Program-made: the position numbers and the translations under genes
Notes under the pieces: generated by a model
What the model saw: the letters and a program-made list of their open reading frames with translations, nothing else
What the model was told of the DNA's origin: nothing
The model's database searches: none
In this document: piece after piece, positions 3,017 through 33,963 of the stretch
Layout: each line of letters starts with the position of its first letter
Numbering within the stretch: the stretch's first letter is position 1
Assembly (NCBI GenBank): GCA_050121225.1
Contig: JASFJP010000001.1
Location: 1-36,936, forward strand
Origin: Desulfobacterales bacterium
GTDB lineage: Bacteria > Desulfobacterota > Desulfobacteria > Desulfobacterales > JAFDCJ01
Length of the DNA: 36,936 nucleotides
Direction of reading: 5' to 3'

Positions 3017-3042
3017 ATTTTCTTGGTACTTAGGACAAACAT

Positions 3043-3537: not shown

Positions 3538-3563
3538 TTTCTTTTTTACTTTCTAGGGAATAC

Positions 3564-14350: not shown

Positions 14351-14364
14351 GGAGAATAATCGAG

Positions 14365-15189
14365 ATGGCTTTCTTCAAATTACTCAGGCAATCACCGCTA
14401 GCCGCGCGCATTGGTCTTGCAATGGTACTGATAAATGTCTTTGCTGCCGTATTTGCTCCGGTTATCACTCCTTATGGAGAAACAGAAGTGGTCGGCGATG
14501 TTTGGCTTTCTTCGAGCAGGGGTCATCTGTTGGGAACCGATCATATCGGAAGGGATATGTTTACGCGTCTGATTTACGGCGCCCGGAATACAATAGCGAT
14601 AGCGTTTATCACAACATTGCTTTCGTTCTTTTTAGGCGCTCTTTTCGGAATTTTTGCGGCAGCACTCGGCGGCTGGACCGATATGGGTCTAAGCCGTGTG
14701 GTCGACATTTTAATGGCCATCCCGATGCTTATTTTTGCGTTAGTCGTGCTGTCGGTGGTCGGCACGTCCATAACCGCTATGATATTGGTCATCGCGGTGC
14801 TCGACTCTACGCGGGTTTTTCGTCTGTCGAGGGCCGTAGCTGTAGATATTTCAGTCATGGAGTACGTTGAAGCGGCAAGGCTTCGCGGCGAAGGAATCGG
14901 GTGGATCATGCGCAAAGAAATACTGCCCAATGCCATGCCGCCGTTAGTCGCGGAATTCGGCCTGCGTTTCTGTTTCGTATTTTTATTCATCGCCTCGCTT
15001 AGTTTTCTGGGTCTGGGTATTCAACCCCCTACGGCGGACTGGGGAGGCATGGTACGGGAAAATGCAGGGGCGATTACCTTCGGCATATTTACGCCGCTAT
15101 GGCCAGCCGGGGCGATCGCATTCCTGACGGTAGGCGTCAACTTAATTGTTGACTGGTTTCTGAAGATTGCTAGCGGGTTAAAGGATTGA
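14365..15189 (+). CDS. ABC transporter permease (DppC-like)
   Basis: LGTDHIGRD, YVEAARLRGE, LSFLGLGIQPPTADWG; AGGAG RBS. Confidence 0.92.
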   Translation: MAFFKLLRQSPLAARIGLAMVLINVFAAVFAPVITPYGETEVVGDVWLSSSRGHLLGTDHIGRDMFTRLIYGARNTIAIAFITTLLSFFLGALFGIFAAALGGWTDMGLSRVVDILMAIPMLIFALVVLSVVGTSITAMILVIAVLDSTRVFRLSRAVAVDISVMEYVEAARLRGEGIGWIMRKEILPNAMPPLVAEFGLRFCFVFLFIASLSFLGLGIQPPTADWGGMVRENAGAITFGIFTPLWPAGAIAFLTVGVNLIVDWFLKIASGLKD

Positions 15190-15258
15190 AAATTGCAGAT
15201 TGAATATCGAATAGATAAGGCATTCTTCCGATAAATATTCAATTAAGAAGGTTTACCA

Positions 15259-16923: not shown

Positions 16924-16952
16924 GATACGAAAAATTATAGGGAGAAGTAATC

Positions 16953-18582: not shown

Positions 18583-18617
18583 AATAGGCAAACGCGGTGT
18601 GTTTGGCCTATTGTTTT
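18583..18617. terminator. Probable bidirectional terminator between SBP2 and usp
   Basis: AATAGGC-AAACGC-GGT-GTGTTT-G-GCCTATT hairpin flanked by A- and T-rich runs between convergent genes. Confidence 0.6.
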
Positions 18618-19014
18618 ATTTTTTTACGGTAACCACCGGGCATGGTGCGTGAAAGATTACATACTGAGCGGTTGAGCCGAATATTAATTTATCAACCTTA
18701 GATTTTTTAATGATGCCAATATAAATGCGCTCCACCTTCTCATCTTGGGCAAAGTCTATCAGCTGTTCTCCGGAAGTCAGTGAGGTTAATAAAACTTGGG
18801 TTTCATAGGGGACAATACCATCACCTAGCAGGTCCATCACTTCCCTTTTCAGGTCCTCCTCCTTCTCTTGGATTTTGGAAGGTTTTAATGGAAGTTCCCT
18901 GGTGATCGTGTTAACCACTTCCAATGTTACTTCTGAACCTTTGGCATCCTTGTGGGCCACTTTTAAAGCAGATTTAGCTGCTTCCGACCCATCATAACAG
19001 ACCATAAACTTCAT
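18616..19014 (-). CDS. Universal stress protein (Usp family)
   Basis: MKFMVCYDGSEAA...FGSTAQYVIFHAPCPVVTVK; AGGGGG RBS before ATG 19014. Confidence 0.9.
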   Translation of the reverse strand: MKFMVCYDGSEAAKSALKVAHKDAKGSEVTLEVVNTITRELPLKPSKIQEKEEDLKREVMDLLGDGIVPYETQVLLTSLTSGEQLIDFAQDEKVERIYIGIIKKSKVDKLIFGSTAQYVIFHAPCPVVTVKK

Positions 19015-19565: not shown

Positions 19566-21041
19566 ATGATACGCGGATTAAAAGCTGGGAAACGCCATAG
19601 CGGGGGGTTTGGGCTCAGCGTATTCACAGACGATGAGCTCTATGAAATCCATCTGGCCACACTGGATGTGCTTAAAAACACGGGCGTCTTTGTTGAAAAT
19701 GACAAGGCTCTCCCCATTTTTGATGGCGGGGGAGCTATCGTAGACCGAAAAAAAAGGATCGTAAAATTTCCTCCCCACGTCGTGGAGGACGCGATCCGTA
19801 GCGCCCCATCTACATTTCATGCTTACGGCCGCATCCCAGAAAGCGATATTGCGCTTGAAGATAATCGGATCTCATTCACTAATTTCGGTGAAGGAATCAT
19901 GTTCGTTGATCCGCAAACCGGTGAACTCAGAGACACCACCAAAGCGGACATCGAAAAAGCTTCAAAAATTATTGACTATCTGGAACATGTCGAAACCTAT
20001 GAAAGATGCATGTGCTCGCACGACAAGCCCCCTAAAGTTCAGGCACTTCACAACGCCGAAGCGTCCCTAACCAATACAACCAAACACCACTGGTTAGGGC
20101 CGGTCAACGGCTATCAGGCCCGAAGAATTGTGGAAATGCTGGTTGCAATAGCCGGTAGTAAGGAGAAAGTGAGAGAACGACCCTTGCTGACATTCGCTAC
20201 TTGCCCGGTGAGCCCTCTCAAATTGCCCAAAGATCATTGCGATATTATTATGGAAGCAGCAAAAAACGGTTTGGGAGTGAATATTATCGGAATGGCTATG
20301 TCGGGAGGGTCTTCCCCGATACACCTTGCTGGAACGTTGGTTTCACAAAACTGTGAAGTTCTATCGAGTCTGGTTTTGAATCAAATGGTGTGCAAAGGAT
20401 CGCCGTTTGTGTATGGCAGTTCCACATGCCCGATGGATCTGCGGCGGGCGACGGCGTCAGTGGGATCCCCGGAGCTCGCTATGATCAGTGCCGCAGTCGC
20501 CCGGCTGGCACGATACTATAGCTTGCCTTGCTTTGTGGCCGGTGGATAGGCTGACACAAAAATCTGCGATTACCAGTCCGGCCACGAAAAGACCATAACC
20601 GCTCTATTACCCGCGTTGGCAGGTGCCAACGTGATATATGGGTTGGGAATGCTGGAAATGGGAATCACTTTCGATTTGGCCCAACTGGTGTTGGATAACG
20701 AAACAGCAGGCATGATTAAATATGCAGTTAACGGAATTCCGGTTGGGGATGAGACCTTGGCCGTTGATGTCATCCAAGAAGTTGGTATCTTCAACGATTT
20801 TCTTGGTCATGAGGATACTTTTAAGCATATGCGAACGCAATCGCAAGCGACCTTAATCGATCGCACGGTCCGGGAAGACTGGGAACAGGCGGGCGGTACC
20901 GATATTTATCAGCGAGCCAAGGAAAAAGTACAACATATTCTGGATACCTATGAACCTCCGCCGCTTGCCGACAGCATTCGGGCTACGATCCGTTCCATTA
21001 TCTCGGATGCAGAAGATGAACTGGGTGTATCCCAAAAATAA
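19566..21041 (+). CDS. mttB: Pyrrolysine-containing trimethylamine:corrinoid methyltransferase MttB (copy 1), 491 aa; in-frame TAG 20547-20549
   Basis: ORFs 19551..20549 and 20616..21041 share a frame. Read-through gives CFVAGG-O-ADTKICDYQSGHEKT...LAGANVIYGLGMLE, the canonical Pyl site; GGAGG RBS. Confidence 0.93.
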
Positions 21042-21074
21042 ATCCGAGAAAAATCTTCTCAAAGGAAAACGATT

Positions 21075-22466
21075 ATGGGAAAGATGCAAACCAGAATGGG
21101 GGACGGCCACCGAGTCGAGATGACCGATGCAGAGGTTCGAAATGATTTAGAAGCAGGCACCCAAGATGCCGCCGAGCGGGCCAAAATACCCCCGCTTACC
21201 CAAGATGAGATCCAATATCTATTTGAACTGCATCAGTGTACCGACAAAGCGGTTGGGGTAACACAAGGGAAGGAAATTTGTCTTACCTATGACAGCGGCA
21301 CCACCAAACTCAAACGGGCCAATATTTCCGTCAGCAAGATTCAATCGTTGCAGTTTTTTGAAAGAGCGCTTGGGGCCGACAGCCTGGAGCTTGCCCACAT
21401 TGATTACAGTTACAAACCGGTAAAACCGATTGTGGTTTTTGAACAGCCCATCATGGAACAAGCGCTTTTGATTACCATACCTCCGCTGCTCTACGGTGCC
21501 ATGCCGAATTTAGGTTTATACAGCCAACCTGACGGCCCATGTCCTAATCCAATGGATTTAATGCCTCAGCGAAAAATTGCAGAAGCTAAAGCATCCTATG
21601 AAGAGGCCGTTGAATATGCGGTAAAGGATATGGTCTACGTGGGCAGCCAGATGTATGTGACAGGCGCAGACGGTATTAACTTTGACACTACCGCTGCTGC
21701 GGGAGATGCGGAATTTTTGGCGACACTTCGCGCTATTGAGATCCTTCGAAAAAAATACCCGGCAATGGGTATTGAATTGGGAATGGCCTCGGAGTTTATT
21801 TTGGGATTGCATGGAGATTTATACTACAAGGGTGTTCAACTAGCGGGACTTTATCCCCATGACCAGGTAAAATTGGCCCAACAAGCAGGTGCCACGATCT
21901 TTGGACCTGCTATCAACATCATCAGCAATAAATCGCTCCCCTTCAACTTATCGCGCTCCGTAACCTACACCAAGGAATGCTCGAAGGAGGCCGATATTCC
22001 GATACATGCCGCGTTAGGCATGGGTGTCGGTGGGGTTCCATTGACCATTACCCCTCCCGTGGATGCATTAACGAGAGCGTCAAAGGCTCACGTAGAAATC
22101 TGCCGCTTGGATGGTTTGTAGGTGGGGGTCGGTGATCCCTACGGTATGCATGCGGCGCACGCAATCGTTTCGGGGATGGGCGGAATACGCACTGCCGGAG
22201 ATCTGGTAGCGCGTTTGCAGCTGAACCGGGCGATGAAGATTGATGCCGCAAAAAAGGTTGTCGCTGATAAACTGGGAGTTTCGGTTTCTGACCTTGCAGA
22301 CCCGGTTGCCATGCGGGAAGTGAGGGAGGATATGAATCTTGGAACACTCAACGAATGTCCCGGCGTGGCCAAAGGGATGGACGCAAAATTTCGAATTGCT
22401 GATTTACTCAATCTCGAGATTAATTCTGTAAATGTCTTCAAACAGAAGGCCGGTATCCAGGTGTAA
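21075..22466 (+). CDS. mtbB: Pyrrolysine-containing dimethylamine:corrinoid methyltransferase MtbB (copy 1), 463 aa; in-frame TAG 22119-22121
   Basis: TRMGDG, HIDYSYKPVKP, YGAMPNLGLY, GMGVGGVP, and RLDGL-O-VGVGDP...GMGGIRTAGDLVAR across the TAG. Confidence 0.93.
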
Positions 22467-22677
22467 CGAGCGAGAATTAAGGATTTAAACTGGAATACAT
22501 GTCGCCTTTCATCCTCGGATAATATTCTCAGGCAATAACTACGCAACTTTTCAAAATTGCCAGCGCGTCATACCGTAATTCGCGGTCTAGTTTGGCTCAT
22601 TTCAATTTTTCGAAAAAAAAGCATTTTTAATCAGTTTCTACGAATCCGGCGCTTCAGAGTCTGTGTGTCAAGAATTC

Positions 22678-22821
22678 CGGATAATTATCCTTTTTTTCTA
22701 ACAAACCCACCCAGTTCAGCAGTTCTTCGCCCTTTGAGGTAGCGGTTTTCGGATCCATTTTTTTGACAACAAGCGGTCCTTCGATAACATTTTCGATAAT
22801 CGATCGATGGGGGACTTGGAA
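22678..22821 (-). pseudogene. Fragment of polar amino-acid ABC ATPase (GlnQ-like)
   Basis: Manual translation FQVPHRSIIENVIEGPLVVKKMDPKTATSKGEELLNWVGLLEKKDNYP resembles the Q-loop-to-signature segment; no Walker A or LSGGQ. Confidence 0.65.
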
Positions 22822-22865
22822 AGCGTTTTTGCAACCACAGGTAGAGTAATGGCTCTAAATGTTTT

Positions 22866-24743
22866 CTACTCTTGCCTGAGAGGCGGGGCATCAAAGGGAA
22901 TGGTGACCTCGTACAAGCCGTTATGGACACGAGCGTTTATTGGTAAATAGCCTCTTTCAAAAACTTTCATCATCACTTTGTTTGCTTCCAGTACTTCAGC
23001 GGTAAAACCTTTCAATCCCCTCTCTTTTGCCAGCCGTATAAGCATTTCATAAAGGTAGGCCGCAATACCCAGGCCTTGATATGTTTCATCCACAACAAAC
23101 GCCAAATCTCCGTAAAAATTTTGCTCATTGGCAACATATCTTGCTTCTGCAATGATCTTATCCTGATCGGGCTCCCCAATCAGTGCCACCACAGACATCT
23201 CACGATTGTAGTCTATATTGACGTATTGTTGAATTTTCCCATGGGGCATGGTCGATATGGGATAGAAAAATCGATTGTAAACCATCTTATTTGAAAAACG
23301 GTAAAAAAGGCGACGCATGGCTTCTTCATCGGAAGGTTTGATAGCCCTGAATCGAACCTTGAGCCCGCCCTTAAAGGTGTGTTCGGTTGCAATTTCCATA
23401 GGGTATATATAGGCACTCCCTGATAAAAAAATCTGATCCTGGAACAGAATCTTCTTTTCTTTTGCCTGGTTGACAAGCTTTTCTCTATCGTCCGGATGAG
23501 CGATATCGATTAAGGCTTGGGCCCGTTCACGGATTGTGCGCCATTTCAGGTTGGCTATTCCATATTCGGTTACCACAACATCAATTGACTCACGCATATG
23601 AAACTGATTGCGAAGATCTCGAAGCATCACCACAATATTGGAGGAACCTTTTGGATTTCGACTAGGCAGTCCGAACACCGTACGTCCTCCCGGAGAGATC
23701 TCAGCGCCGGTTAACAGGTCTGCTGCTTCACCCGGACCGGACGTAATATTTCCCTTACCCACAGGAAACGCAATTCTACCTAACAAATCCACTTTTCGGG
23801 CTTGGAACACAACCACGAACTTAGGATTACGTCCGACTTGGATCGGATCAAATACTTGTTCAACACCTTGAAATTCAACCAGTGGATTGCGGTCCAACCA
23901 TGCCATCAACTCCGGTGTTCCCAGCGCATAGGAAGCAACTGATTTGCCCCTGAAAACAGTCTTGCGATAGTTGGTCACAGCCCCGCTTTTAACCAGATCC
24001 ATCAGGGCATCGGTAAAATAAGCCGAATGGATGCCCAGGTGGCGTTTGCCGGTAAGGTGCCGGCCTAATGCTTCAAACAAAGGACCGGTATGAAAGCTGA
24101 TACAATCCCCATCTTCAACCAATTGAGCTACATTGGCGGCAACTTGATCTATAACACTGTTAACCGGCCAGCGCTTAAAATAGGTCGGCGACTCGGTTGC
24201 TTTAATCAATAGGTCAAAATCTGAAATCGAGACAATTGTATCGCCGAATGTGAAAGGGATTCGGGTGTTGATTTCCCCTACCACCAACGAAGCTTGCTCC
24301 ATGGCCTCGCGAGCGACATCAATCGCCACCCCGAGACTGCAATAACCGGCTTCATTGGGAGGCGAAATTTGAATAAATGCCGTATCAATGGGAATCCGCT
24401 TGGATTTGATAATTTGGGGAATCTGGGAAATTCGACCCGGGATTAAATCCACACTTCCTGCAATAACAGCCTCACTGGCCACCCACGTGGAAAAAAACGT
24501 TTTGAGACGGTATCTCTGCCAATCAAGTTTTTTTAAAGAAAGGACATCCCCATGACTGGTGAGCTGGATCAATTCCAGATCATTGGTGTTCGAAAGACCG
24601 GAATCAATGAGACATTTCATCAGGGTGCGAGGTTCGGCCACACCGCTTCCGAGAAAGATAGTCATCCCCGGCTTAATATAGGCCAGGACCTCATCTGGAG
24701 TGACAACTAAATCTTCCCATTGGTTATTGGCGAGATCACTCAT
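22866..24743 (-). CDS. Acetyl-CoA hydrolase/transferase-like domain fused to C-terminal GNAT acetyltransferase
   Basis: IKPGMTIFLGSGVAEP, QISPPNEAGYCSLG, VVTEYGIANL...RERAQALIDIAHPDDRE; GNAT part RAIKPSDEE...NIDYNREM...FVVDETYQGLGIA. Confidence 0.88.
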   Translation of the reverse strand: MSDLANNQWEDLVVTPDEVLAYIKPGMTIFLGSGVAEPRTLMKCLIDSGLSNTNDLELIQLTSHGDVLSLKKLDWQRYRLKTFFSTWVASEAVIAGSVDLIPGRISQIPQIIKSKRIPIDTAFIQISPPNEAGYCSLGVAIDVAREAMEQASLVVGEINTRIPFTFGDTIVSISDFDLLIKATESPTYFKRWPVNSVIDQVAANVAQLVEDGDCISFHTGPLFEALGRHLTGKRHLGIHSAYFTDALMDLVKSGAVTNYRKTVFRGKSVASYALGTPELMAWLDRNPLVEFQGVEQVFDPIQVGRNPKFVVVFQARKVDLLGRIAFPVGKGNITSGPGEAADLLTGAEISPGGRTVFGLPSRNPKGSSNIVVMLRDLRNQFHMRESIDVVVTEYGIANLKWRTIRERAQALIDIAHPDDREKLVNQAKEKKILFQDQIFLSGSAYIYPMEIATEHTFKGGLKVRFRAIKPSDEEAMRRLFYRFSNKMVYNRFFYPISTMPHGKIQQYVNIDYNREMSVVALIGEPDQDKIIAEARYVANEQNFYGDLAFVVDETYQGLGIAAYLYEMLIRLAKERGLKGFTAEVLEANKVMMKVFERGYLPINARVHNGLYEVTIPFDAPPLRQE

Positions 24744-24753
24744 CTTTTTTTCT

Positions 24754-25113
24754 CTAATGATCTAATTTTTCATCCTCTTGCAAAAGTAACGATCCGTAAT
24801 GCCGTTTAAACTGGGTGGAGGAATATTTTGCCAACTTCCACTCCGGGATCCGGCACACCGGACATACGTTTTTGAACCACTTGTTGCGCAGCCAGCGCGC
24901 AGCTCTACTGTTGCGAGAATCAATGATCAGAAACGTTTTATGGCAGTGGGTGGTTACCCGGGCCTGGTCTCCAATCTTTTCTATTGTTTTGATACCGTGC
25001 AAAATCCCTTTACGTGAAGGCCACAATTTTATCTTATCAATCAGCCGAAACAGCTCTACGCGTTTGCGATAGAATCTTTTGGCGGGCTTTTTAGTCTTTT
25101 CCCCCGGGACCAT
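24754..25113 (-). CDS. pylSn: Pyrrolysyl-tRNA synthetase N-terminal (tRNA-binding) subunit
   Basis: KIKLWPSRKGILHGIK...THC...SRNSRAARWLRNKW...CPVCRIPEWKL; ATG 25113 lies 4 nt after the pylB stop. Confidence 0.92.
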   Translation of the reverse strand: MVPGEKTKKPAKRFYRKRVELFRLIDKIKLWPSRKGILHGIKTIEKIGDQARVTTHCHKTFLIIDSRNSRAARWLRNKWFKNVCPVCRIPEWKLAKYSSTQFKRHYGSLLLQEDEKLDH

Positions 25114-25117
25114 GGTT

Positions 25118-26221
25118 TCACATTGCTGGCGGAATGCTGTTTGCCGCCCGTTCATTTTGGCGATTTTTTATCCAGCTAAGATAGTCATATTTGCTTGCCG
25201 GTCGAAGAGCGCAATCGTTTAAAACATTTAATACGGATGCAATGGTTCTTCTCCCGTCTTCTATGTCCAAAAAATGCTGGGCCACTCCAGTGAGACCACT
25301 TCCTGGAGGTACAATCGAGGTTACGACATTGGCACCGGCTTCCAGGCGCTGTTTCAATCCGTCCAAACCATCTACATCCAATGAAGCCGGTATTAATCTA
25401 TCCGGGAAAACAAGCCTCATGACGGCGATGATCTTCATCTCTTTGAGAGAATCCGGTGGATTTCTTTTTTCCATCGGCGTTCCTGGCTGGGGAACAAATT
25501 TCATTACTCGCATCTGATCGGCATCGATCTGCTGCATCACGTTAAGAGATCTAGCAACGTCAAAGGGAGTTTCACCAACCCCACAAAGTAATCCTTCTTC
25601 AATCAGCATCCCGATGCCGTGGGCTTTATGTTTGGTTTCCAACCGCAAGGAGAAATCCTGTCCAGGCCTCAGCTGATCAAACAACTGCCCTTGATGCGTC
25701 TCCTGATAGCAGGCATACCAATCCGCGCCGGCTTTTACCAATCTTGGTAAAACATCTTCCGGAATCACCCCTGGTGACACCATAATCGGCACACCGGTGG
25801 CATGTCGCACCACACGGACCAACTCGACCAATCGATCAAATCCACTGCCGTCACTGTTAAACAAGAGGGGATCCTCGCCCATTGTCAAATCGATGAGATG
25901 AATTCCTGAATTTGACATATGCGCAGCTGCTGCAACAATTTCCGGCAACTCTTTACGATATCTCCGGATTTGCGAATTGGATCGGCGGTAATAGCAAAAA
26001 CGACAGTTATTGCGACAAAAGGTGCTGATATAAAGGAAACCATACAGGAAAATCTTATGGCCGAAATGCTGTTTGCGCAGATCTCTGGCCGTCCTAAATA
26101 GGGCCTCTAGCTCATCAGAACGGCAAAGGTTAAGCAAAATGACAAGGTCTTCATGGGAAAGCGTTTCATTTCGTCGAGGTTTGGAAAGAATGGTTTCAAG
26201 TTTAGGGAATGTGTTCTTCAT
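25118..26221 (-). CDS. pylB: Methylornithine synthase PylB (radical SAM)
   Basis: FLYGFLYISTFCRNNCRFCYYR, HLIDLTMGEDP, WYACYQETH, LIPASLDVDGLDGL..RL.AGANVVTSIVPP; directly after tRNA-Pyl. Confidence 0.95.
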   Translation of the reverse strand: MKNTFPKLETILSKPRRNETLSHEDLVILLNLCRSDELEALFRTARDLRKQHFGHKIFLYGFLYISTFCRNNCRFCYYRRSNSQIRRYRKELPEIVAAAAHMSNSGIHLIDLTMGEDPLLFNSDGSGFDRLVELVRVVRHATGVPIMVSPGVIPEDVLPRLVKAGADWYACYQETHQGQLFDQLRPGQDFSLRLETKHKAHGIGMLIEEGLLCGVGETPFDVARSLNVMQQIDADQMRVMKFVPQPGTPMEKRNPPDSLKEMKIIAVMRLVFPDRLIPASLDVDGLDGLKQRLEAGANVVTSIVPPGSGLTGVAQHFLDIEDGRRTIASVLNVLNDCALRPASKYDYLSWIKNRQNERAANSIPPAM

Positions 26222-26250
26222 GCGCTATGCAAAAATCACCAAATTTGGAA

Positions 26251-26324
26251 TGGCGGGGAGTACGGGAGTCGCACCCGCCTATGTGAGTTTAGAGCCCACA
26301 CGATCTCATCACGATCCACCCCCC
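26251..26324 (-). tRNA. pylT: tRNA-Pyl (anticodon CUA), 74 nt with encoded CCA
   Basis: GGGGGGU-G-GAUC-GUGAUGA-GAUC-G-UGUGGG-CUCUAAA-CUCACA-UAG-GCGGG-UGCGACU-CCCGU-ACUCCCC-G-CCA. One-nt acceptor/D linker, 6-bp anticodon stem, 3-nt variable loop, no T-psi-C, G73. Confidence 0.96.
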
Positions 26325-26366
26325 TCAATCCATAATGTAATTTTAGTCCCAGATCTTTTCTCCCTG

Positions 26367-27371
26367 TCACTGCGCTCTGGCGACGTCCACCATGGCCAAA
26401 AGATTTTCAAGCGGCGTGCCGGGTGCCACCGAGCAGCCCGGGGCCAGAATCTGGATTCCGCCTGCGATGGTCTTCTCACACTCTTGCTTGATGGTTTGCG
26501 GGTCCATAAGGTAAAGGGACGTGACTGTATCCACGCCTCCCATCAAGATGATATCCGTCCCGCATTTTTCCCGTGCAAGTTTGATGTTGGCTTTCGGTTC
26601 CAAGCTCAAAACATCGGCTCCGGTCTGACCCATATACTCCACGATGAAGTCCACATTGCCGCAAATATGCAGTATTTTGGGTACAGAAATGGCACCAAAT
26701 TGTCTCTTTTGATATTCAAATTCATAATCGCGATAGGTATCCGGTGCGGCCAGCATAGGAGAAGCCGTCATATCTTCACAAGCGATAATATCAGCACCCG
26801 CATCCACGAGAGCATGCGCCAGGGTAGTGCCCGCCTTTTCGGCTATGTCAAGAAAAGGCCGTATCTTTTCGGGAGTTTTAATGCTGGCTTTTAAAAGCGG
26901 AACCGAATCCAAAAGGCCGCCTGCAATCGTGAACGGACCGATGATCCCGCCGACTATCGGCACCTCATCACCCAATTCATTTTTAAGTAGGCGCACCGCT
27001 TTAAGCAGTTCCGGGATCCTGCCTCGCGAGAGAAAATCATCCGGAAATACCGGCGTGTCATCTAGAGTATACGGCGGCGGGAAATCGATGCCCGGAATCC
27101 CCTCACTGCCGCCCGGCTTTAATTTGCATCCCAAAGCCTCGGCCTCGATAGTTTGACAGAAAGGTACCCTAACCGCATCAAACCCCAACACGGTGTACGC
27201 TGACAAGGCTTGCTTGGCCATGGCCGCTCCATTTTCATGTCCTTCGGGCCAAAAGGCCTGGACCTTTTCCATTTGATCGTAGGTTACCGCAGCATTGGCC
27301 GAAAAACATGGCATTCGGTCCGCTGCCTGATGGTTGAGCACACGCATGACACGCTCTTTGGCATTCATCAT
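26367..27371 (-). CDS. MtaA/MtbA/CmuA-family methylcobamide methyltransferase (URO-D fold)
   Basis: GFDAVRVPFCQTIEAEALG, GRIP, GPFTIA, Zn ligands LHICG and APGC; AAGGAG RBS. Confidence 0.88.
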   Translation of the reverse strand: MMNAKERVMRVLNHQAADRMPCFSANAAVTYDQMEKVQAFWPEGHENGAAMAKQALSAYTVLGFDAVRVPFCQTIEAEALGCKLKPGGSEGIPGIDFPPPYTLDDTPVFPDDFLSRGRIPELLKAVRLLKNELGDEVPIVGGIIGPFTIAGGLLDSVPLLKASIKTPEKIRPFLDIAEKAGTTLAHALVDAGADIIACEDMTASPMLAAPDTYRDYEFEYQKRQFGAISVPKILHICGNVDFIVEYMGQTGADVLSLEPKANIKLAREKCGTDIILMGGVDTVTSLYLMDPQTIKQECEKTIAGGIQILAPGCSVAPGTPLENLLAMVDVARAQ

Positions 27372-27760
27372 CGAAAATCTCCTTGGCCGAAGATCTCATC
27401 GTCAATTATTGGAGGGTCGGAGAGTTTTTCATTCAAACCCTAGCAAAAAGCGTGATGACTGGTCGGTCGCGAAAACCGGGCACTGTCTGAAAGGATTAGG
27501 GATCGTTGCAAAAGAACAGGGATCGGCTGGATATTGCAGATCGCAAATTAAATCTAATTTTCAGCTAATGTATTAGTAAAATATCCCTTTGCTGTTCTTT
27601 TTGTACGAGCCCTTATCCATGAGTTTGCTCGGGTTTTGCGGCTGATTATTCATATAGCGGTTAAATCAAAAAACTCTCTGATCCCTCAATTATTTAAAAT
27701 CGACGTCGGTCAAAACTCCCAGCACATTAATGCTGCAACGCTATCTATTTACGCTCGCAT

Positions 27761-28405
27761 TTACTTTAAAATTGCTTGGAGCTTCTCGATTGTGTCTCCC
27801 GGCGATTCCCCAAAAAAATCCGCGCCGATTCGTTTCGCCCAATGGTCGGTTGCCACGGCTCCGCCAACCATGGTTTTAACCTTGCCACGGATGCCCGCTT
27901 CTTTCAAAGCTTCCTCCAGCTTTTTTTGGCCGATCTGTGTGGTCGTCATCATGGCTGATGATCCGATGACATCCGCATTGACTTCTTGAGCTTTTTCGAC
28001 AAATTTTTCAATCGGGACGTCCCGCCCCAGATCATGAACCTCATAGCCGTGCACGTTCAACATGGTCACCATGATGCCTTTACCGATGTCGTGAATATCT
28101 CCTTCAACGGTACCGATCACAATGACACCTAATTTCTCCTGTTGCCTATCCTCGGGTAGGGCTTCTTTCAAAATATCAACCGCAGCCACCATTGCATCGG
28201 AAGCGATGATCAATGCCGGCAAAAAGACCTCCCCGCGATCAAAAAGATCTCCCATTTTCCGGATTCCGGCCGCGAAACCTGCGTTGATCATTTCAACCGG
28301 GTCCACACCATCTTCCAGGGATTTTCTTGCAACTTCCCTGGCGGCCTCCTCATCCTGATCCAAAATGGATTGGGAAGCTTTCTCCAACCATTCTGATTTT
28401 TCCAT
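27761..28405 (-). CDS. Methyltransferase cognate corrinoid protein (MtbC/MttC-like)
   Basis: GEVFLP, GTVEGDIHDIGK (DxHxxG), DLGRDVP, SSAMMTTT, VGGA; directly downstream of mtbB copy 2. Confidence 0.92.
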   Translation of the reverse strand: MEKSEWLEKASQSILDQDEEAAREVARKSLEDGVDPVEMINAGFAAGIRKMGDLFDRGEVFLPALIIASDAMVAAVDILKEALPEDRQQEKLGVIVIGTVEGDIHDIGKGIMVTMLNVHGYEVHDLGRDVPIEKFVEKAQEVNADVIGSSAMMTTTQIGQKKLEEALKEAGIRGKVKTMVGGAVATDHWAKRIGADFFGESPGDTIEKLQAILK

Positions 28406-28456
28406 TCGTTCCTCTCCCGTGCGAAATTATGCGTTAATCCGGGCCAAGCCCCAAAT

Positions 28457-29842
28457 CTACAACAGCCCCTTGTTTTTAAGACGTCGGACGCAGTTGATGT
28501 CGATACCCAAGACCTCGGCAATGCGAATCTTGGCCTCCAAGCCTTTGGCACTGCCGGGCAACGGGTTCATGGTTCCAATCTCTAAATCTTCCCTAATTTC
28601 CGTCATAATTACCGGATCCGTAAGATCGAAAACCGATACCCTTAGTTTGTCGGCCACATACGCTTTGGCTGCGTCAATTTTCATGCCGCGGGTCATTTGC
28701 ATTCGGGCCACCAGATCTCCGGCCGCCCGCATACCGCCCATGCCCGAGGCAATCGCGTGGGAAATGGCCATGCCAAGCGGATCACCCACGCCAACCTACA
28801 ATCCGTCAAGCCGGCAGATTTCAACCATCGCCTTGGAGGCACGGGAAACAATATCTATCGGTGGATGGGCGTTCATCGGCACACCACCTACGCCCATGCC
28901 CATGTTGGCATGGATTGGAATGTTGGCCACTTCGCAACAGGCCTTAGTAAAGGTGATGGCCCTTGATAAGTTCCAGGGAATGGACCGACTGGTTTTGATA
29001 TTCACCACAGGTCCGAAAATCGTAAATCCTGCCTGTTCCGCAAATTTCACTTGATCATGGGGATACATTCCGGCTAAACGGTCCCCGTGATATTCCAGTT
29101 CGCCGTGCAACCCGAGGATGAACTCACCGGCCATTCCAAGCTCGATGCAGATATCGGGATATTTCTCTTTGAGGATCTCGGCGGCTTTAAGGCCTGCCAA
29201 AAAGTCGGGATCCCCGGCAGCCCCCGTAGTATCCATATTTATTCCGTCTGCTCCGGATTCATACATAGCGCTGGCGACATAAACAATATCCTTGACGGCA
29301 TCTTCGACCGATTTTTCGTAGGATTCCCTGGCGGCGGCGATCTTTCCCAGAGGTAGCAATTCCGAGGGGTTGGGATGGGGACCATCCGGTTGGCTGTAGA
29401 GACCCAGATTAGGCATGGCGCCATAGAAAAGCGGGACATGGGTGACCATTAGGGTTTGTTCAAGGGCCGTCTGCTCCGTGCCCAAGATCGGCTTGACCGG
29501 TTTGAAACTGTAGTCAACATGGCCCAATTCAATGGTATCGGCGCCCAAAATTTTTTCATGGATTTGCATCGATTGAATCGGATGAACGTTCACGGCCGCG
29601 CGAACGATTTTCAGCGGACCGCCGTCATAAGAAAGGACGACTTCGTTGCCCGGTTCGACACTAACAAAACGATAGGGAGAAACAAAAAGTTCGTACAGAT
29701 AGCGCAACTCTTCTTTGGAAAGCGGGGCTATCTTGCCGCGGTCGGCCGCATCTTCAGTACCGAGCTCCAAGTCCCCTTTAAGCTCGCTTTCACTCATTTC
29801 AACGGGAAATCCGTCGCCCATGCGGGTCATGATATTTCCCAT
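28457..29842 (-). CDS. mtbB: Pyrrolysine-containing dimethylamine methyltransferase MtbB (copy 2), 461 aa; in-frame TAG 28796-28798
   Basis: RLDGL-O-VGVGDPLG...GMGGMRAAGDLVARMQ; ORFs 28796..29842 and 28457..28789 are in frame; AAGGAGG RBS. Confidence 0.94.
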
Positions 29843-29889
29843 AAAGCCTCCTTTTTTACCCAGGCTATGGTAAGTGTATCCGTATTCGC

Positions 29890-31365
29890 CTATTTCCCGA
29901 CAATCCCTAACTCCTCTTCCGCCCCTTCCACAATAGAACGTATAGAGGCCAGAACATCATCAGGCAGCGGCTCCGGTTTGTGGGTTTCCAAAATATGACG
30001 GGCTTTTTCCAGAGCCCTTTGATAAATATCGGTACTGCCTGAAGCCTCCCAGTCCTCCCGCATTCTGCGGTCAATCAGTTTTGGCTCGGATTGGGATCTC
30101 ATGTGGTTGAAGGTGCTGTCATGGCTGAGAAAATCTTTTCCGACCCCAATTTCATGGATGACGTCCACCGCCAACATTTGATCATCGACCGGAATCCCCT
30201 GTAAAATGAACTTGATCATTCTGGCGAATTCATTGTCCATTACCAGTTGGCCAAAATCAATTGTCATACCCATTTCGATCATACCCAGGCCGTAAATCAG
30301 GTTGGCTCCTGCCAACGCCGGTAACAGGCCTGTGATGGTTTTTTCATGACCGGACTGGGCATCACAGACTTTACTGTCGCCCTACCCACCGGCAACCCAG
30401 CTGGGGAGTAAATAGTAAGTCGCCATTTGGGCTACACCGGCATTGATCAGGGCACACTCCGGCGACCCCACCGATGCGGATGCCAGTCTCAAATCCATAG
30501 CGGTTGTGGAGCTGCCGTAAACAAATTTTGCGCCCTTTTGGGTGCATTGGCTGAGGACAAGTCCACCGAGTACTTCCGCGTTGTGATCTACCAGAGTTCC
30601 AGCCAGAGTAACCGGTGAAGAGCCCCCGGACATGGCCATGGATAAAACATTTACGGTCAAACCGGCCCGGGCAGTTTCCATTATAATTTCACAGCTCTCT
30701 TTAAAGAGTTGTAGAGGGCTGACCGGGCAAGTGATAAACGAAATAATGGAGCGTTCTTGCAGTTTGTCTTTTCCGCCGACAATAGCCGCTGCCATCTCAA
30801 CAATTTTTCTCGTCAAATACCCGTTGCCGGAACCCATAAACCCATGTTTGGACGTATTGGGCAGCCAAGCTTCGGCATTATGAAGCTGTACCGTCTGTGT
30901 CGGCGCATCGCTGGCACCGACAGCCCGTTCATAAACGTCAATTTCGCTCAGGTAGTCGGCAATCAGAGCCGAAGCAGCCACATCGGCTTTCGTCGTTTCT
31001 CTGTGTTCTCCGGTGTATGGGTCGTTGATGAACACGCCTTCACCAAAATTCGTAAATCCCACCCGGTTGCTTTCCATGACGAAATCGTGCTTGGGGTTGC
31101 GCCCTGCCAACAGAATCTTTGAAGGTGCTGAACGGATAGCATCTTCAACCACATAGGGAGGCAACTTTGCAATTTTGCTTTTTTTGTCGATCGCAGCCCC
31201 CCCACCGTCAAGGACCTCCAAGGCTTCTTCATCATCGAAAAACAGCCCTGTGTTCTGCAGAACCTCAAGCGTGGCGAGATGAATATCATAAAGCTCGTCT
31301 TCGGTGAAAACCTGAAAACTCAGACCCCCTCGTCGCTTTTTACCGGCATGAATGTTGCGTCTCAA
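29890..31365 (-). CDS. mttB: Pyrrolysine-containing trimethylamine methyltransferase MttB (copy 2), 491 aa; in-frame TAG 30382-30384
   Basis: SWVAGG-O-GDSKVCDAQSGHEKT...LAGANLIYGLGMIE; TTG start after GGAGG RBS. Confidence 0.94.
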
Positions 31366-31570: not shown

Positions 31571-32212
31571 TCATCCTTGACTCAACAATGCTTTAGCCTT
31601 TTCTGAAGCCGAACCAGCATTCGCACCGTAGGCATCGGCGCCGATTTCCTCGACAAAGCTTTGTGTCACCGGTGCGCCTCCAGCCATGATTTTTAGCTGA
31701 TCACGGATACCGGCCTCCTTCAGGGCAAGCACTGTTTCCGCCATTTTGGGCATGGTGGTCGTTAACAGAGCCGACATCCCCACAATCGCCGGTTGGTGCG
31801 TTTTTGTAGCCTCCACAAAATCCTGAGGTTTGACGTCTGTGCCCAAATCGATAACATTAAACCCCGCCCCTTGAAGCATCATTGATACTAAATTTTTCCC
31901 GATATCATGCAAATCTCCTTCTACAGTGCCGATAATCACGGTACCAAGCCCGCTGCTATCTTCTTCCGATAAATGGGGTTTTAGGATTTCCATGGCGGCT
32001 TGCATTGTCTTTGCGGAACGGAGGACTTCCGGAATAAACATTTCGCCTGTCTTCATCCGTTGGCCCACGATATCCATCCCTGGAATCAGGCCGCTGTCCA
32101 AAATATCCTTCGCCGCGAGGCCCTCTTCCATGCCCTCTTCAACTAGTTTGTTCACTGCTTCGGCGTTAGCACTAATCAAGGCTTCTGCCATCTTTCCATA
32201 TAATTCGGACAT
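31571..32212 (-). CDS. Methyltransferase cognate corrinoid protein
   Basis: GEMFIPEV, GTVEGDLHDIGKNLV, SALLTTTM, GGAPVT; AGGAG RBS. Confidence 0.93.
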   Translation of the reverse strand: MSELYGKMAEALISANAEAVNKLVEEGMEEGLAAKDILDSGLIPGMDIVGQRMKTGEMFIPEVLRSAKTMQAAMEILKPHLSEEDSSGLGTVIIGTVEGDLHDIGKNLVSMMLQGAGFNVIDLGTDVKPQDFVEATKTHQPAIVGMSALLTTTMPKMAETVLALKEAGIRDQLKIMAGGAPVTQSFVEEIGADAYGANAGSASEKAKALLSQG

Positions 32213-32472: not shown

Positions 32473-33963
32473 TCACGCGACTTTGTTGTCCAATTTGAGT
32501 TCCTTTTCAAATTCGAACACAATTTCGCTCATGGTTTCGGCAGCGCCTTCCGGCAAGGGATAAGGTTTATGATTTTGAAGAACCTCAAGCGCCACCTCAT
32601 AGGCCCTCTCTGTCATATCCTTACCCTGGACCATTTCCATCCAATGATCACGTGATCTTCGATCCATCAAGCTTGTTCGGGACTGGCTACTCATAAACTT
32701 AAAGCTGTGTTCATGAGAGATGTATGCGCCCCCGGGTCCAACCTCATGGATTAAATCGAAAGCCAGGGTTTCGTCGGTTATCGTTATGCCTTTTAGGGCA
32801 GCCTGAACCATCCGGATCATTTCACTGTCCATAATCAGCTTGGCATAATCCATGGTCATGCCTTGTTCCAACACGCCGGAACCGAAAATAAGGTTGGCCC
32901 CAGCCAGTGCATCCAGGACAGCGCTGAGGGTGAACTCATACCCCGACTGGATGTCCGGTATCTTGCTGTCGGACGCGCCACCCCCCACAAAACAGGGTAG
33001 TCGGTAATATTGGGCGAGTTTGACGATCGAAGCATTTATCACGCCGTACTCCGGAGATCCGATGGCAGTGGTACCAAATCGTAAATCTAAAATCGTGCTG
33101 GAACTGCCGTAGGTACACGGCAGGCCTCTTCTCGTCAACTGCGCCAAGACGATACAGCCTAACACTTCTGCATTGTGGATGGCGAGGGTACCGGCCAATG
33201 TGGCCGGCGACGTTCCGCCGGAGAGGGCCATGGGCATCACCATGATCCCCACCCCCAGGGAGGCCGCTTTAATGGTAATGTCACAGGTGTTCTGGGGAAG
33301 AGTAAGTGGACTCAAGGGACACACGTTGACGGTAAAAATCGGGCGCGAAGAAAAAAATTCCTTTCCTCCGGTGCAGCATGCCGCCAGATCCACCATGACA
33401 TTCAACGCTCGCGGAGAATCAGCGCCTAGAAAAATATGCTTGCCGGTATTGCCCAGCATGGCTTCCAGGTTATGCGTGGACTGGCATTGATTCAGGACAT
33501 CGGTGGAGTTGACAGTTCTTTCGGCCACACAAATTTCATCCAGAAAGTCGCAGACCCGAGTGATGTCACCACAGTCTTTTTTGGTTGCCCGCCGAACTTG
33601 GCGCGTGATTGGATCAATGACATTAACGCATCCACCGAAAGTGGTAAAACCTACGCGATTGGGCTCCGCTACATAATCATCATTGGGATTGCGCGCATCA
33701 TAGACGACTGTCCTCGGCGCCCAGTGAACGCAGTCTTCAACCAGATAGGAAGGAATTTTAGCGATACCATATCCTCCGAATCGCTCAACCGCAGCTCCGG
33801 CGCCATGAAAGATTTCCAATGCCTCTTCGCTAATTACTTTTATTCCGGTATCTTGAAGAATCTGTATCGTAGCATAATGCAGGGAGTCCAGCTCATCCTT
33901 GGAATGAGTGCTTAAGCCAAAACCTGCGGTTGTTCCGATCCCGCTTCGAGTCATCCTTCGCAT
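32473..33963 (-). CDS. Non-pyrrolysine MttB-superfamily methyltransferase
   Basis: Collinear with the Pyl MttBs but uninterrupted; CFVGGG-A-SDSKIPDIQSGYE has Ala at the Pyl position. Confidence 0.9.
   Translation of the reverse strand: MRRMTRSGIGTTAGFGLSTHSKDELDSLHYATIQILQDTGIKVISEEALEIFHGAGAAVERFGGYGIAKIPSYLVEDCVHWAPRTVVYDARNPNDDYVAEPNRVGFTTFGGCVNVIDPITRQVRRATKKDCGDITRVCDFLDEICVAERTVNSTDVLNQCQSTHNLEAMLGNTGKHIFLGADSPRALNVMVDLAACCTGGKEFFSSRPIFTVNVCPLSPLTLPQNTCDITIKAASLGVGIMVMPMALSGGTSPATLAGTLAIHNAEVLGCIVLAQLTRRGLPCTYGSSSTILDLRFGTTAIGSPEYGVINASIVKLAQYYRLPCFVGGGASDSKIPDIQSGYEFTLSAVLDALAGANLIFGSGVLEQGMTMDYAKLIMDSEMIRMVQAALKGITITDETLAFDLIHEVGPGGAYISHEHSFKFMSSQSRTSLMDRRSRDHWMEMVQGKDMTERAYEVALEVLQNHKPYPLPEGAAETMSEIVFEFEKELKLDNKVA

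What the first reader, a model, noticed from the sequence alone, without database searches (positions are those of the whole stretch)
19566..31365. Hidden genetic-code expansion: four amber-interrupted Pyl methylamine methyltransferases around a tRNA-Pyl
Seen: eight ORF-track pieces join into four genes (2 mttB, 2 mtbB), each with exactly one TAG at the homologous position (AGG-O, LDGL-O-VGVGDP). tRNA(CUA), pylB and pylSn lie between them. Known: MttB and MtbB use pyrrolysine to demethylate TMA and DMA. Inference: a Desulfobacterota-like bacterium demethylates TMA and DMA, substrates usually regarded as non-competitive for methanogens. Standard pipelines would call these genes pseudogenes. No mtmB is in the window.
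Basis: partly seen in the sequence, partly recalled or inferred. Interest (0 to 1): 0.85.

Follow-up and report, generated by a model that had tools for sequence, protein, structure and literature searches.

The report
Pyrrolysine methylamine genes in sulfate reducer
Four genes of this sulfate-reducing bacterium carry a stop codon exactly where the rare 22nd amino acid pyrrolysine sits in known methylamine-demethylating enzymes, and the genome holds every gene for making and inserting it, so the cell likely strips methyl groups from tri- and dimethylamine; this is already known for the group, but a small conserved RNA hairpin behind these codons may help mark them for read-through.

Summary
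Observation confirmed. Two mttB and two mtbB genes each carry one internal TAG at the pyrrolysine (Pyl) site and pass curated family cut-offs when read through; tRNA-Pyl, pylB and pylSn lie between them. Two of the four also END in TAG. The missing pylSc-pylC-pylD and a third mttB/mtbB pair are on contig C5, so the refutation test fails. The genome has dsrAB and selA/selB, no mcrA. The idea is not new: Olavius delta-1 (2007) and marine Deltaproteobacteria (2021, including competition with methanogens) are in print, and MtbB matches occur in 23 of 23 genomes of this genus. Extras found here: (1) the pyl genes are a mosaic of two half-operons of different ancestry; (2) a zinc/thiol-type MtaA-like methyltransferase sits in the cluster although Mcr is absent; (3) TAG remains about 25% of stops, and a covarying AGRN-loop hairpin 72-78 nt behind the Pyl codon picks 5 of 6 Pyl genes and none of the other TAG-ending ORFs among 715; the scan found this hairpin before on other DNA, and its function is untested; (4) several relatives keep PylRS and TAG genes but no pylBCD was found. 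New member of a known kind.

The parts
19566..21041 (+). mttB1, trimethylamine:corrinoid methyltransferase, internal TAG (Pyl) at 20547-20549, ends TAA
   Evidence: (TIGR02369 715.7 bits)
20615..20630 (+). hairpin UUGGC-AGGU-GCCAA core, loop at +72..+75 after the TAG
21075..22466 (+). mtbB1, dimethylamine:corrinoid methyltransferase, internal TAG at 22119-22121, ends TAA
   Evidence: (TIGR02368 519.7 bits)
22185..22216 (+). hairpin with AGAU loop at +78..+81 after the TAG (also modelled in Rfam PYLIS_2)
22866..24743 (-). acetyl-CoA hydrolase/transferase-GNAT fusion directly after pylSn; link to the system not shown (absent next to pylB in the 80 loci)
24754..25113 (-). pylSn, N-terminal part of PylRS (probable ATG at 25113; longest ORF starts 25155)
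   Evidence: (TIGR03912 122.5 bits)
25118..26221 (-). pylB, methylornithine synthase (radical SAM); of a different lineage than the C5 pylSc/C/D
26251..26324 (-). pylT, tRNA-Pyl, anticodon CUA, 3-nt variable loop, encoded CCA
26367..27371 (-). MtaA/CmuA-family (UroD fold) second methyltransferase with His-x-Cys...Cys motif; acceptor unknown
27761..28405 (-). corrinoid protein (MtbC-like; TIGR02370 243.6 bits, cut-off 215.3)
28457..29842 (-). mtbB2, internal TAG at 28798-28796, terminal TAG at 28459-28457 (read-through would add 10 residues)
   Evidence: (518.4 bits)
28701..28732 (-). hairpin with AGAU loop at +78..+81 after the TAG
29890..31365 (-). mttB2 (TTG start behind GGAGG), internal TAG at 30384-30382, terminal TAG at 29892-29890
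   Evidence: (764.4 bits)
30301..30316 (-). hairpin UUGGC-AGGA-GCCAA, loop at +72..+75 after the TAG
31571..32212 (-). second corrinoid protein (MtgC/MttC-like; below the cut-offs of TIGR02370 and NF047996)
32473..33963 (-). non-Pyl MttB-superfamily gene (Ala, GCG, at the Pyl site; lacks the hairpin codons); substrate unknown

Best explanation
The four genes are intact mttB and mtbB genes whose single internal TAG lies at the pyrrolysine site, in a dsrAB-bearing bacterium whose genome holds all six pyl genes, so the TAG is likely read as pyrrolysine and the enzymes likely demethylate trimethylamine to dimethylamine and then monomethylamine. Steps: PylB (window), PylC and PylD (C5) would make Pyl from two lysines; PylSc (C5) plus PylSn (window) would charge the single tRNA-Pyl (window); the tRNA would compete with release factor at UAG, which stays a common stop (about 25%). 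Pyl-MttB and Pyl-MtbB would methylate the neighbouring corrinoid proteins, kept active by RACo/RamA-type activators. The methyl group most likely goes to tetrahydrofolate (C300 methyltransferase) and is oxidised through MetF, FolD and a selenocysteine formate dehydrogenase, with electrons to sulfate reduction; side routes to homocysteine (gene behind pylD) and, through the MtaA-like enzyme in the window, to a thiol or sulfide are inferred. The pyl set is a mosaic: the ancestral locus on C5 kept pylSc-C-D, a second incoming cluster (window) kept pylT-B-Sn. A conserved hairpin 72-78 nt behind the Pyl codon and a fixed codon before it probably favour read-through or protect the message; that role is inferred. 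Shown: sequences, family membership, gene inventory, conservation. Inferred: Pyl insertion, substrates, methyl sink, hairpin function.
For: Read-through products pass curated cut-offs and align at the Pyl site of PDB 7xcm. All pyl genes over cut-off, single copy. Third TAG mttB/mtbB pair beside pylSc on C5. Genus: MtbB 23 of 23, PylSc 21 of 23, PylSn 20 of 23; 52 of 52 near-full-length MtbB matches interrupted only by TAG. dsrA 618.6 bits; 3 RACo activators; corrinoid:THF methyltransferase 359 bits, cut-off 259; MetF-family matches; FolD fragment, SelB, TGA-interrupted FdhA 1481 bits; SelA. Both contigs have the same depth in run X5 (10.6-11.6 on most of C5; 9.2-12.7 on most of the window) and X5 contigs reproduce pylSn-pylB-pylT-mtaA and pylD-pylC-pylSc; window RhlB is 70-77% identical to 21 of 22 genus relatives. 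Mosaic: C5 PylC/PylD/PylSc group with the genus' native-locus copies (support 0.97-0.99), window PylB with another clade (AU p = 0.019); tRNA 66-68 of 74 identical to the second type, 56-60 of 74 to the native type. Same biology is published for relatives (PMC1976440, PMC8318568).
Against: No protein, activity or growth data. AcsB was not found in this genome though present in 20 of 22 genus relatives; acsB/C/D orthologues gave no tblastn hit and the CO dehydrogenase gene has unrelated neighbours, so the full Wood-Ljungdahl pathway of the published model may be missing (genome 87.5% complete). A formate-THF ligase motif was not found (recalled motif only). Three divergent paralogues per family (47-62% identical) need not share a substrate. 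In archaea, pyl genes alone did not guarantee function (PMC12626013, passages). The AU test group was named after the trees were seen. The PylRS halves and tRNA come from two lineages; compatibility is untested. RNA contigs cannot show expression level.
Confidence: 0.82

Rival explanations
1. Pyl is inserted, but methylamines serve mainly as methyl (and nitrogen) donors for biosynthesis or are passed to a thiol, not as an energy source coupled to sulfate reduction: methyl-corrinoid feeds the homocysteine methyltransferase behind pylD and the MtaA-like enzyme behind mtbB2-corrinoid.
For: Both second methyltransferases inside the Pyl clusters are thiol-methylating types, while the THF-type enzyme is on another contig (C300) away from any methylamine gene; in 19 of the 80 named loci a pterin-type gene sits near pylB instead and no close MtaA orthologue (over 35%) does. 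Order mtbB-(corrinoid)-mtaA recurs in G003, G021, G008 and G100. acsB/C/D not found.
Against: Six Pyl enzymes and about ten further MttB-family genes are more than biosynthesis needs; THF methyltransferase, MetF, FolD, Fdh and DsrAB are present; MtaA orthologues also sit beside MtaB (G004, G031) or with no methylamine gene nearby (G007, G010), and were found in only 8 of 40 relatives; no ComA found.
Confidence: 0.2
2. The hairpin and the fixed codon before UAG have nothing to do with choosing Pyl over stop; read-through is simply ambiguous and set by Pyl-tRNA supply, and the hairpin acts on mRNA stability, pausing or is partly a by-product of the protein sequence.
For: Stem largely follows from conserved residues (LAGAN, AGDLV); folding energy against synonymous shuffles is unremarkable for mttB2 (0.29) and C5 mttB (0.50); RNAalifold on the wider mttB region gives only a weak 3-pair consensus; the hairpin is missing in 6 of 6 Bacillota TAG-mtmB genes and in 3 Bacillota mttB genes; it lies about 50 nt further from the codon than this genome's putative SECIS hairpins. 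PMC12626013 favours supply-driven ambiguity in archaea.
Against: The hairpin codons and the -1 codon are the most constrained synonymous sites of both, unrelated-in-sequence gene families; compensatory changes on both sides; non-Pyl MttB homologues with Ala at +24 use GCA in 1 of 10 against 25 of 26.
Confidence: 0.45
3. The genes are pseudogenes or sequencing artefacts, or the window and C5 come from different organisms binned together, leaving no complete Pyl system.
For: Metagenome-assembled genome of 644 contigs; the pyl operon is split; one ordinary-looking nonsense TAG exists elsewhere (C187).
Against: Same-site TAG in 6 of 6 copies here and 52 of 52 in the genus; reproduced in run X5; equal depth of both contigs; genus-typical RhlB in the window; contamination 2%; the two halves complement each other exactly with no duplicates.
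Confidence: 0.02

Closest known systems
Marine Deltaproteobacteria with dual (Pyl + Sec) code expansion, Kivenson, Paul & Valentine 2021 (PMC8318568; abstract and sections 8-10 read, plus passages; supplements not read)
   Same: Sulfate reducers with full Pyl and Sec machinery, multiple Pyl-MttB copies and Pyl-MtbB, corrinoids, RamA, non-Pyl MttB in the locus; proposed TMA oxidation and competition with methanogens.
   Different: Their genomes lack an MtbA-type enzyme and have the full Wood-Ljungdahl pathway; here an MtaA/CmuA-family gene is in the cluster, AcsB was not found, and the pyl genes are split into two halves of different ancestry. No mRNA element is reported in the sections read.
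Olavius algarvensis delta-1 symbiont, Zhang & Gladyshev 2007 (PMC1976440; passages read)
   Same: Deltaproteobacterium with pylT, Sn, Sc, B, C, D, 6 Pyl-MtbB and 2 Pyl-MttB, no Pyl-MtmB but non-Pyl MtmB homologues in the dataset.
   Different: Host-associated; the authors found no common RNA structure behind the UAGs, whereas a shared AGRN-loop hairpin is seen here.
Methanosarcina barkeri MttB (PDB 7xcl/7xcm/7xcn) and the MttB/MtbB-corrinoid-MtbA route
   Same: Pyl site aligns; corrinoid partners; an MtaA/MtbA-family second methyltransferase (PDB 4ay7, E 2e-67).
   Different: No McrA in this genome or 40 relatives, no ComA found; PylRS split into Sn and Sc; no Pyl-MtmB.
Rfam PYLIS_2 (RF02509) and PYLIS_3 (RF02510); Theil Have et al. 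2013 (PMC3639795; passages read)
   Same: All four TAG regions match these models; the PYLIS_2 consensus already draws the mtbB hairpin near +70..+95.
   Different: PYLIS_3 does not model the mttB hairpin and the paper saw no common mttB structure; PYLIS_3 also matches the non-Pyl mttB (60.5 bits), so the match alone is not diagnostic. A shared loop and spacing across both families was not found in the papers read.
Desulfospira joergensenii DSM 10085 pyl locus (L040)
   Same: mttB(TAG)-corrinoid ... pylT-corrinoid-pylB-pylSn-mtbB(TAG) with no pylSc/C/D within 10 kb; both genes carry the hairpin. A cultured test organism.
   Different: THF-type second methyltransferase in the cluster, AcsB present; its PylB is not close to the window's.
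Bacterial MtaA-like proteins (Mlp) of type 1 mlp clusters, Kountz & Balskus (PMC10418091; Results read)
   Same: UroD-superfamily enzymes with His-Cys-Cys zinc site in non-methanogens, proposed S/Se-methyltransferases.
   Different: Those clusters hold several Mlps and no methylamine methyltransferase; here a single gene follows Pyl-mtbB and its corrinoid.

Membership tests
Pyl-MttB (TIGR02369) | Full-length match over the curated cut-off | tested here: met
   715.7 and 764.4 bits against 525; the non-Pyl gene also passes (589.9), so the score alone does not define the Pyl type
Pyl-MttB (TIGR02369) | In-frame UAG at the position of M. barkeri Pyl | tested here: met
   alignment to 7xcm
Pyl-MttB (TIGR02369) | Trimethylamine:corrinoid methyltransferase activity | not testable with these tools
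   needs protein assay
Pyl-MtbB (TIGR02368, PF09505) | Full-length match over cut-off with UAG in (L/A)DGL-O-(V/I)G | tested here: met
   519.7 and 518.4 bits against 369.1
Pyl-MtbB (TIGR02368, PF09505) | Dimethylamine:corrinoid methyltransferase activity | not testable with these tools
   needs protein assay
Bacterial Pyl system | tRNA-Pyl with CUA anticodon | tested here: met
Bacterial Pyl system | pylSc, pylSn, pylB, pylC, pylD all present and uninterrupted | tested here: met
Bacterial Pyl system | One cluster pylT-Sc-B-C-D-Sn (usual order, PMC3941956) | tested here: not met
   split T-B-Sn (window) and Sc-C-D (C5); usual, not obligatory
Bacterial Pyl system | Pyl residue in the expressed protein | not testable with these tools
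   needs mass spectrometry
Kivenson-type Pyl+Sec sulfate reducer | dsrAB and Sec machinery with Sec formate dehydrogenase | tested here: met
   tRNA-Sec not found by ARAGORN
Kivenson-type Pyl+Sec sulfate reducer | Complete Wood-Ljungdahl pathway | tested here: inconclusive
   methyl-branch genes found; acsB/C/D not found in an 87.5% complete genome
Methanogen MtaA/MtbA coenzyme M methyltransferase | Subfamily match and His-x-Cys...Cys zinc motif | tested here: met
   TIGR01463 272.6/235.4, NF004889 312.9/244; motif aligned to 4ay7
Methanogen MtaA/MtbA coenzyme M methyltransferase | Equivalog cut-offs for MtaA and MtbA | tested here: not met
   NF040654 306/400, NF041608 237/600
Methanogen MtaA/MtbA coenzyme M methyltransferase | Coenzyme M and Mcr in the cell | tested here: not met
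   McrA over cut-off in 0 of 41; ComA not found in G000 (incomplete genome, other routes not searched)
Fully recoded amber code (all TAG = Pyl) | TAG nearly absent as a stop | tested here: not met
   TAG ends 24-25% of 941-3572 long ORFs; extensions behind TAG no longer than behind TAA/TGA
SECIS-like recoding element (bacterial PYLIS) | Conserved, covarying hairpin specific to recoded codons | tested here: met
   (for mttB/mtbB; not for mtmB)
SECIS-like recoding element (bacterial PYLIS) | SECIS-type spacing close to the codon | tested here: not met
   loop at +72/+78, against about +24 for hairpins behind 6 of 7 putative Sec TGAs folded here
SECIS-like recoding element (bacterial PYLIS) | Required for or enhances read-through; bound by a dedicated factor | not testable with these tools
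   needs reporter and binding assays

The most novel reading that the evidence does not exclude
These bacteria do not read UAG at random: a short hairpin with an AG(G/A)N loop 72-78 nt behind the codon, together with a fixed G-ending codon before it, is a cis-signal shared by mttB and mtbB that marks the Pyl codon as sense in a genome where a quarter of genes, including three of the six Pyl genes, stop at UAG. It would be the bacterial Pyl insertion signal that earlier searches did not find. A second bold reading: the MtaA-like enzyme hands the methyl group to sulfide or a thiol, so these sulfate reducers would turn methylamines into methanethiol/DMS without making methane.
Probability: 0.35. 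Interest if true: 0.8.

Novelty: new member of a known kind. Interest (0 to 1): 0.42.

Why it matters
The core finding adds one more genome to a described group, but shows the trait is genus-wide (MtbB matches in 23 of 23) in organisms whose DNA is common in wetland metagenomes, where TMA and DMA are still often treated as methanogen-only substrates. The value lies in the testable extras: how bacteria tell a Pyl UAG from a stop UAG is an open question (PMC1976440, PMC12626013), and the hairpin gives exact synonymous changes to test, with a built-in control (genes that have both a sense and a terminal UAG) and a cultured relative (Desulfospira joergensenii). The MtaA-like enzyme offers a possible link between methylamines and methylated sulfur, and relatives without pylBCD raise the question of Pyl cross-feeding.

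Tried and rejected
Further Pyl proteins: screened 727 TAG-ending ORFs of 150 aa or more for coding-like extensions; beyond the six methyltransferases only an ABC ATPase on C187 with TAG at the Walker B position stood out, taken as a probable nonsense change; most others were next-gene overlaps (judged by eye, no family scan; short upstream ORFs not covered). Remnants of pylT, pylB or pylSn at the C5 locus or of pylSc/C/D elsewhere: none. Rfam PYLIS matches as proof of Pyl: rejected, the non-Pyl mttB matches too. Promoter/terminator scan: counts equal to shuffles (21 vs 20.2; 17 vs 19.0). Expression: RNA-library contigs cover parts of all four genes but also housekeeping genes and cannot rank genes or exclude DNA; the C5 pylSc/C/D stretch had no cover in three RNA runs, which shows nothing; five RNA runs had only small word shares. 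Long-range pairing between the UAG and the hairpin: no convincing covariation. Folding energy of the hairpin region against synonymous shuffles: fractions 0.026, 0.024, 0.062, 0.288, 0.504, 0.048 for the six genes, 0.178 for the non-Pyl control, so energy alone does not carry the claim. PylSn tree: too short, supports 0.64-0.9, not used as evidence of origin beyond being outside the native group. Exact taxonomy: no name obtained. PMC13222342 (passages) was not relevant. Archaeal mttB/mtbB DNA was not examined for the hairpin. No structure prediction or complex job was run. Literature searches without a report of the mttB hairpin, of a split mosaic operon of this kind, of an MtaA-type acceptor in such clusters or of Pyl auxotrophs: (listings only; the library lacks most subscription papers, and supplements, such as Kivenson's gene-neighbourhood tables, were not read and may bear on the MtaA and operon points).


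Full report
1. Observation. With table 11 the region gives eight ORF pieces; with TAG read as a residue they join into four genes: mttB1 19566-21041 (+), mtbB1 21075-22466 (+), mtbB2 29842-28457 (-), mttB2 31365-29890 (-), each with one internal TAG (20547, 22119, 28798, 30384) in the contexts AGG-O and LDGL-O-VGVGDP. All pass the curated cut-offs of TIGR02369 or TIGR02368, and the mttB1 TAG falls on the Pyl position of Methanosarcina MttB (PDB 7xcm). ARAGORN finds tRNA-Pyl (CUA) at 26251-26324; PylB and PylSn pass their cut-offs. Two of the four genes also end in TAG. On the minus strand the cluster reads: non-Pyl mttB, corrinoid, mttB2, mtbB2, corrinoid, (390 bp), mtaA-like, pylT, pylB, pylSn, CoA-transferase/GNAT; mttB1-mtbB1 converge from the other side.

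2. The rest of the genome (G000; 4.55 Mb, 644 contigs, 87.5% complete, 2% contaminated). pylSc, pylC and pylD lie together on C5, over their cut-offs and uninterrupted, followed by a homocysteine-methyltransferase-domain gene and divergent from a third mttB(TAG)-mtbB(TAG)-corrinoid set. Every pyl gene is single copy and no remnants were found. In run X5, not marked as the source, both contigs have about the same depth and both half-operons are reproduced; the window's RhlB is 70-77% identical to 21 of 22 genus relatives and 60-68% to eight other genomes of the order. The genome has dsrAB, SelA, SelB and a TGA-interrupted formate dehydrogenase, three RACo-type activators, a corrinoid:THF methyltransferase, MetF-family genes and a FolD fragment. 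McrA was over cut-off in 0 of 41 genomes; ComA was not found. AcsB was not found although 20 of 22 genus relatives have it; acsB/C/D from three relatives gave no hit and the CO dehydrogenase gene sits beside unrelated genes. An MtmB homologue on C399 has no amber codon (Val at the Pyl position). Eighteen DNA runs holding half or more of the sampled words are wetland metagenomes of one year, possibly one campaign, four of them possible sources. Nearest named relatives of PylB and of the MtaA-like protein are Desulfobacterota, mostly Desulfobacterales; I have no direct name below phylum.

3. How common. In the genus: MtbB matches in 23 of 23 genomes, 52 near-full-length matches with 1 TAG (51) or 2 TAG (1) and no other stop; PylSc 21 of 23; PylSn 20 of 23; PylB over cut-off 12 of 23 plus 3 partial; PylC 16 of 23; PylD 14 of 23. 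In an even sample of the order, PylSc 33 of 201 and PylC 28 of 201. A GTDB scan confirmed 230 PylB-related stretches, of which the best 80 were kept.

4. A mosaic pyl set. In G020, G016 and G011 the locus reads corrinoid-mtbB-mttB // pylT-Sc-B-C-D-Sn-homocysteine methyltransferase, and in G012 the pyl genes lie between the same ligA and glyQS neighbours as on C5: C5 is this native locus minus pylT, pylB and pylSn. G100 has mttB-...-mtbB-corrinoid-mtaA-mttB-pylT-Sc-B-C-D-Sn with corrinoid and MtaA 80% and PylB 66% identical to the window's: the window looks like this second type minus pylSc, C and D. Trees agree: PylC and PylD of C5 group with G001/G007/G013 inside the native clade, PylSc with the native clade, but PylB with G004/G009/G015/G100/G213 and Desulfobacteraceae; holding PylB in the native clade is rejected at p-AU 0.019 (group chosen after seeing the trees; trees used 31-39 of the available rows, those covering 75-80% of the query from a hand-picked set of loci). 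The tRNA matches the second type at 66-68 of 74 and the native type at 56-60 of 74. Reciprocal loss after gain of a second cluster is the simplest inference. Split pyl sets are not unique: T-B-Sn without Sc/C/D occurs in 2 of the 80 named loci, including Desulfospira joergensenii, the genus shows several other splits, and a detached pylB is described for Ca. M. alvus (PMC3941956, passages).

5. How is UAG told from stop? TAG ends 24-25% of long ORFs, and of Pyl genes with a recovered end 10 of 47 mttB and 20 of 56 mtbB stop at TAG. An earlier AI note of this scan (e1-9862592) pointed to a hairpin; I tested it on my own loci. Ranking codon positions by synonymous constraint (29 mttB and 31 mtbB representatives under 80% nucleotide identity, from 48 and 58 genes; 232 and 208 positions), the top three are +24 GCA (25 of 26), +23 TTG (21 of 27), -1 GGG (22 of 28) in mttB, and +26 GGA (31 of 31), -1 TTG (28 of 31), +28 CTG (31 of 31) in mtbB (ranks only, the sequences are related). 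These codons build UUGGC-AGGN-GCCAA (loop +72) and a longer stem with loop AGAU (+78). Pair counts: mttB 87% paired, 9 two-sided changes, 2 of 500 shuffles as high, covariation score 9 of 500 (33 of 48 genes); mtbB 93% paired, 43 two-sided changes, 0 of 500 (40 of 58 genes, 37 distinct); the structures were derived from these sequences and shuffles ignore kinship. Among 35 non-Pyl MttB homologues, 10 have Ala at +24 and 1 uses GCA. A rule drawn from these genes (AG[AG]N loop at +66..+84, 5 or more pairs) picks 5 of 715 TAG-ending ORFs of the genome, all Pyl genes (the C5 mtbB is missed), against 4 of 2211 TAA/TGA-ending ORFs; sensitivity is circular, specificity is not. Against: weak or unremarkable folding energy in mttB2 and C5 mttB, a weak RNAalifold consensus for mttB, absence in 6 of 6 Bacillota mtmB genes and 3 Bacillota mttB genes, and a spacing unlike this genome's putative SECIS hairpins near +24. 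Rfam PYLIS_2 already draws the mtbB hairpin; PYLIS_3 does not draw the mttB one. Zhang & Gladyshev found no common structure and Theil Have et al. none for mttB. At least six other notes of this scan report the same hairpin in other genomes; they are not independent evidence.

6. The MtaA-like gene. It passes the MtaA/CmuA subfamily cut-offs but not the MtaA or MtbA equivalogs, aligns over its length with M. mazei MtaA (4ay7) including His-x-Cys and the C-terminal Cys, with a different N-terminal segment. His-Cys-Cys marks S/Se-methyltransferases in this superfamily (PMC10418091, Results read). Orthologues at 59-86% occur in 8 of 40 relatives: behind mtbB in G003, G021, G008, beside MtaB-like genes in G004 and G031, with no methylamine gene nearby in G007 and G010; 1177 database proteins match at E <= 1e-40. 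Kivenson's genomes lack MtbA. The acceptor is unknown; sulfide or a small thiol is my inference.

7. Mechanism and verdict. Most likely: Pyl made by PylBCD and charged by PylSc/Sn is inserted at the internal UAGs; MttB and MtbB move methyl groups from TMA and DMA to corrinoid proteins; the methyl group is oxidised via THF to CO2 with sulfate as acceptor, with side routes to homocysteine and a thiol; monomethylamine is probably left, unless the non-Pyl MtmB homologue uses it. Enzyme chemistry rests on established knowledge of these families as summarised in PMC8318568; none was measured here. The system is a new member of the kind described for Olavius delta-1 (PMC1976440) and marine Deltaproteobacteria (PMC8318568), whose section 10 already argues competition with methanogens and reports expression in sediment transcriptomes. 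Interest 0.42 rather than 0.85: the headline is known, while the hairpin, the thiol-type second enzyme and the relatives lacking pylBCD are worthwhile, testable leads.

Noticed in passing
G012 (L245), G017 (L246), G014 (L247), G018 (L251), G005 (L252); also G091 (L267), G123 (L268): Five genus relatives keep pylT-pylSc-pylSn and TAG-containing mtbB genes with the hairpin, but PylB, PylC and PylD were not found; G012 and G017 are 90-96% complete in about 40 contigs. G091 (99%, 7 contigs) has pylT-Sc-D-Sn and G123 pylT...Sc-D with no PylC found (PylB not searched genome-wide there). Possible Pyl or precursor scavengers, or an unbinned pylBCD block (it is a separate block in G001, G004, G007, G009).
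   Followed up: partly
G000:C399:55-1437 (L009): Full-length MtmB homologue without amber codon (Val at the Pyl position), behind a corrinoid gene; substrate unknown.
   Followed up: partly
G000:C5:12820-12822, 15307-15309; window 28457-28459, 29890-29892: pylSc, C5 mttB, mttB2 and mtbB2 all end in TAG; read-through would add 1 (pylSc: O-K), 0-20 residues; could serve as a Pyl-level sensor or be neutral.
   Followed up: partly
G000:C7:15028-17148 and C155 end: The acetyl-CoA synthase cluster of relatives seems dismantled: CO dehydrogenase lies beside cstA, and acsB/C/D were not found.
   Followed up: partly
G000:C187:4285-4287: Amino-acid ABC ATPase with an in-frame TAG at the Walker B glutamate position and an intact C-terminal half; probably a nonsense change, no hairpin behind it.
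   Followed up: partly
G000:C115 and C198, C218, C592, C301: About nine further non-Pyl MttB-superfamily genes, five on one 10 kb contig, suggesting wide use of quaternary amines.
   Followed up: no
window 11670-18551: Opp/Dpp-type ABC transporter with two substrate-binding proteins directly upstream of the cluster, plus a Usp gene (18616-19014); link to methylamine or Pyl-peptide uptake not examined.
   Followed up: no
G000:C82, C437, C79, C232, C457, C27: Several in-frame TGA candidates with near-identical SECIS-like hairpins (loop about +24), consistent with a sizeable selenoproteome; tRNA-Sec not assembled.
   Followed up: partly
L143, L144 (G031, G004): Desulfobacterota clusters with methanol methyltransferase MtaB-like genes (649-662 bits, cut-off 720), corrinoid and the same MtaA-like enzyme.
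   Followed up: partly
window 22866-24743 and G000:C155:4813-6720: Acetyl-CoA hydrolase/transferase-GNAT fusion behind pylSn; a similar fusion sits before the RACo gene of the acs region.
   Followed up: no
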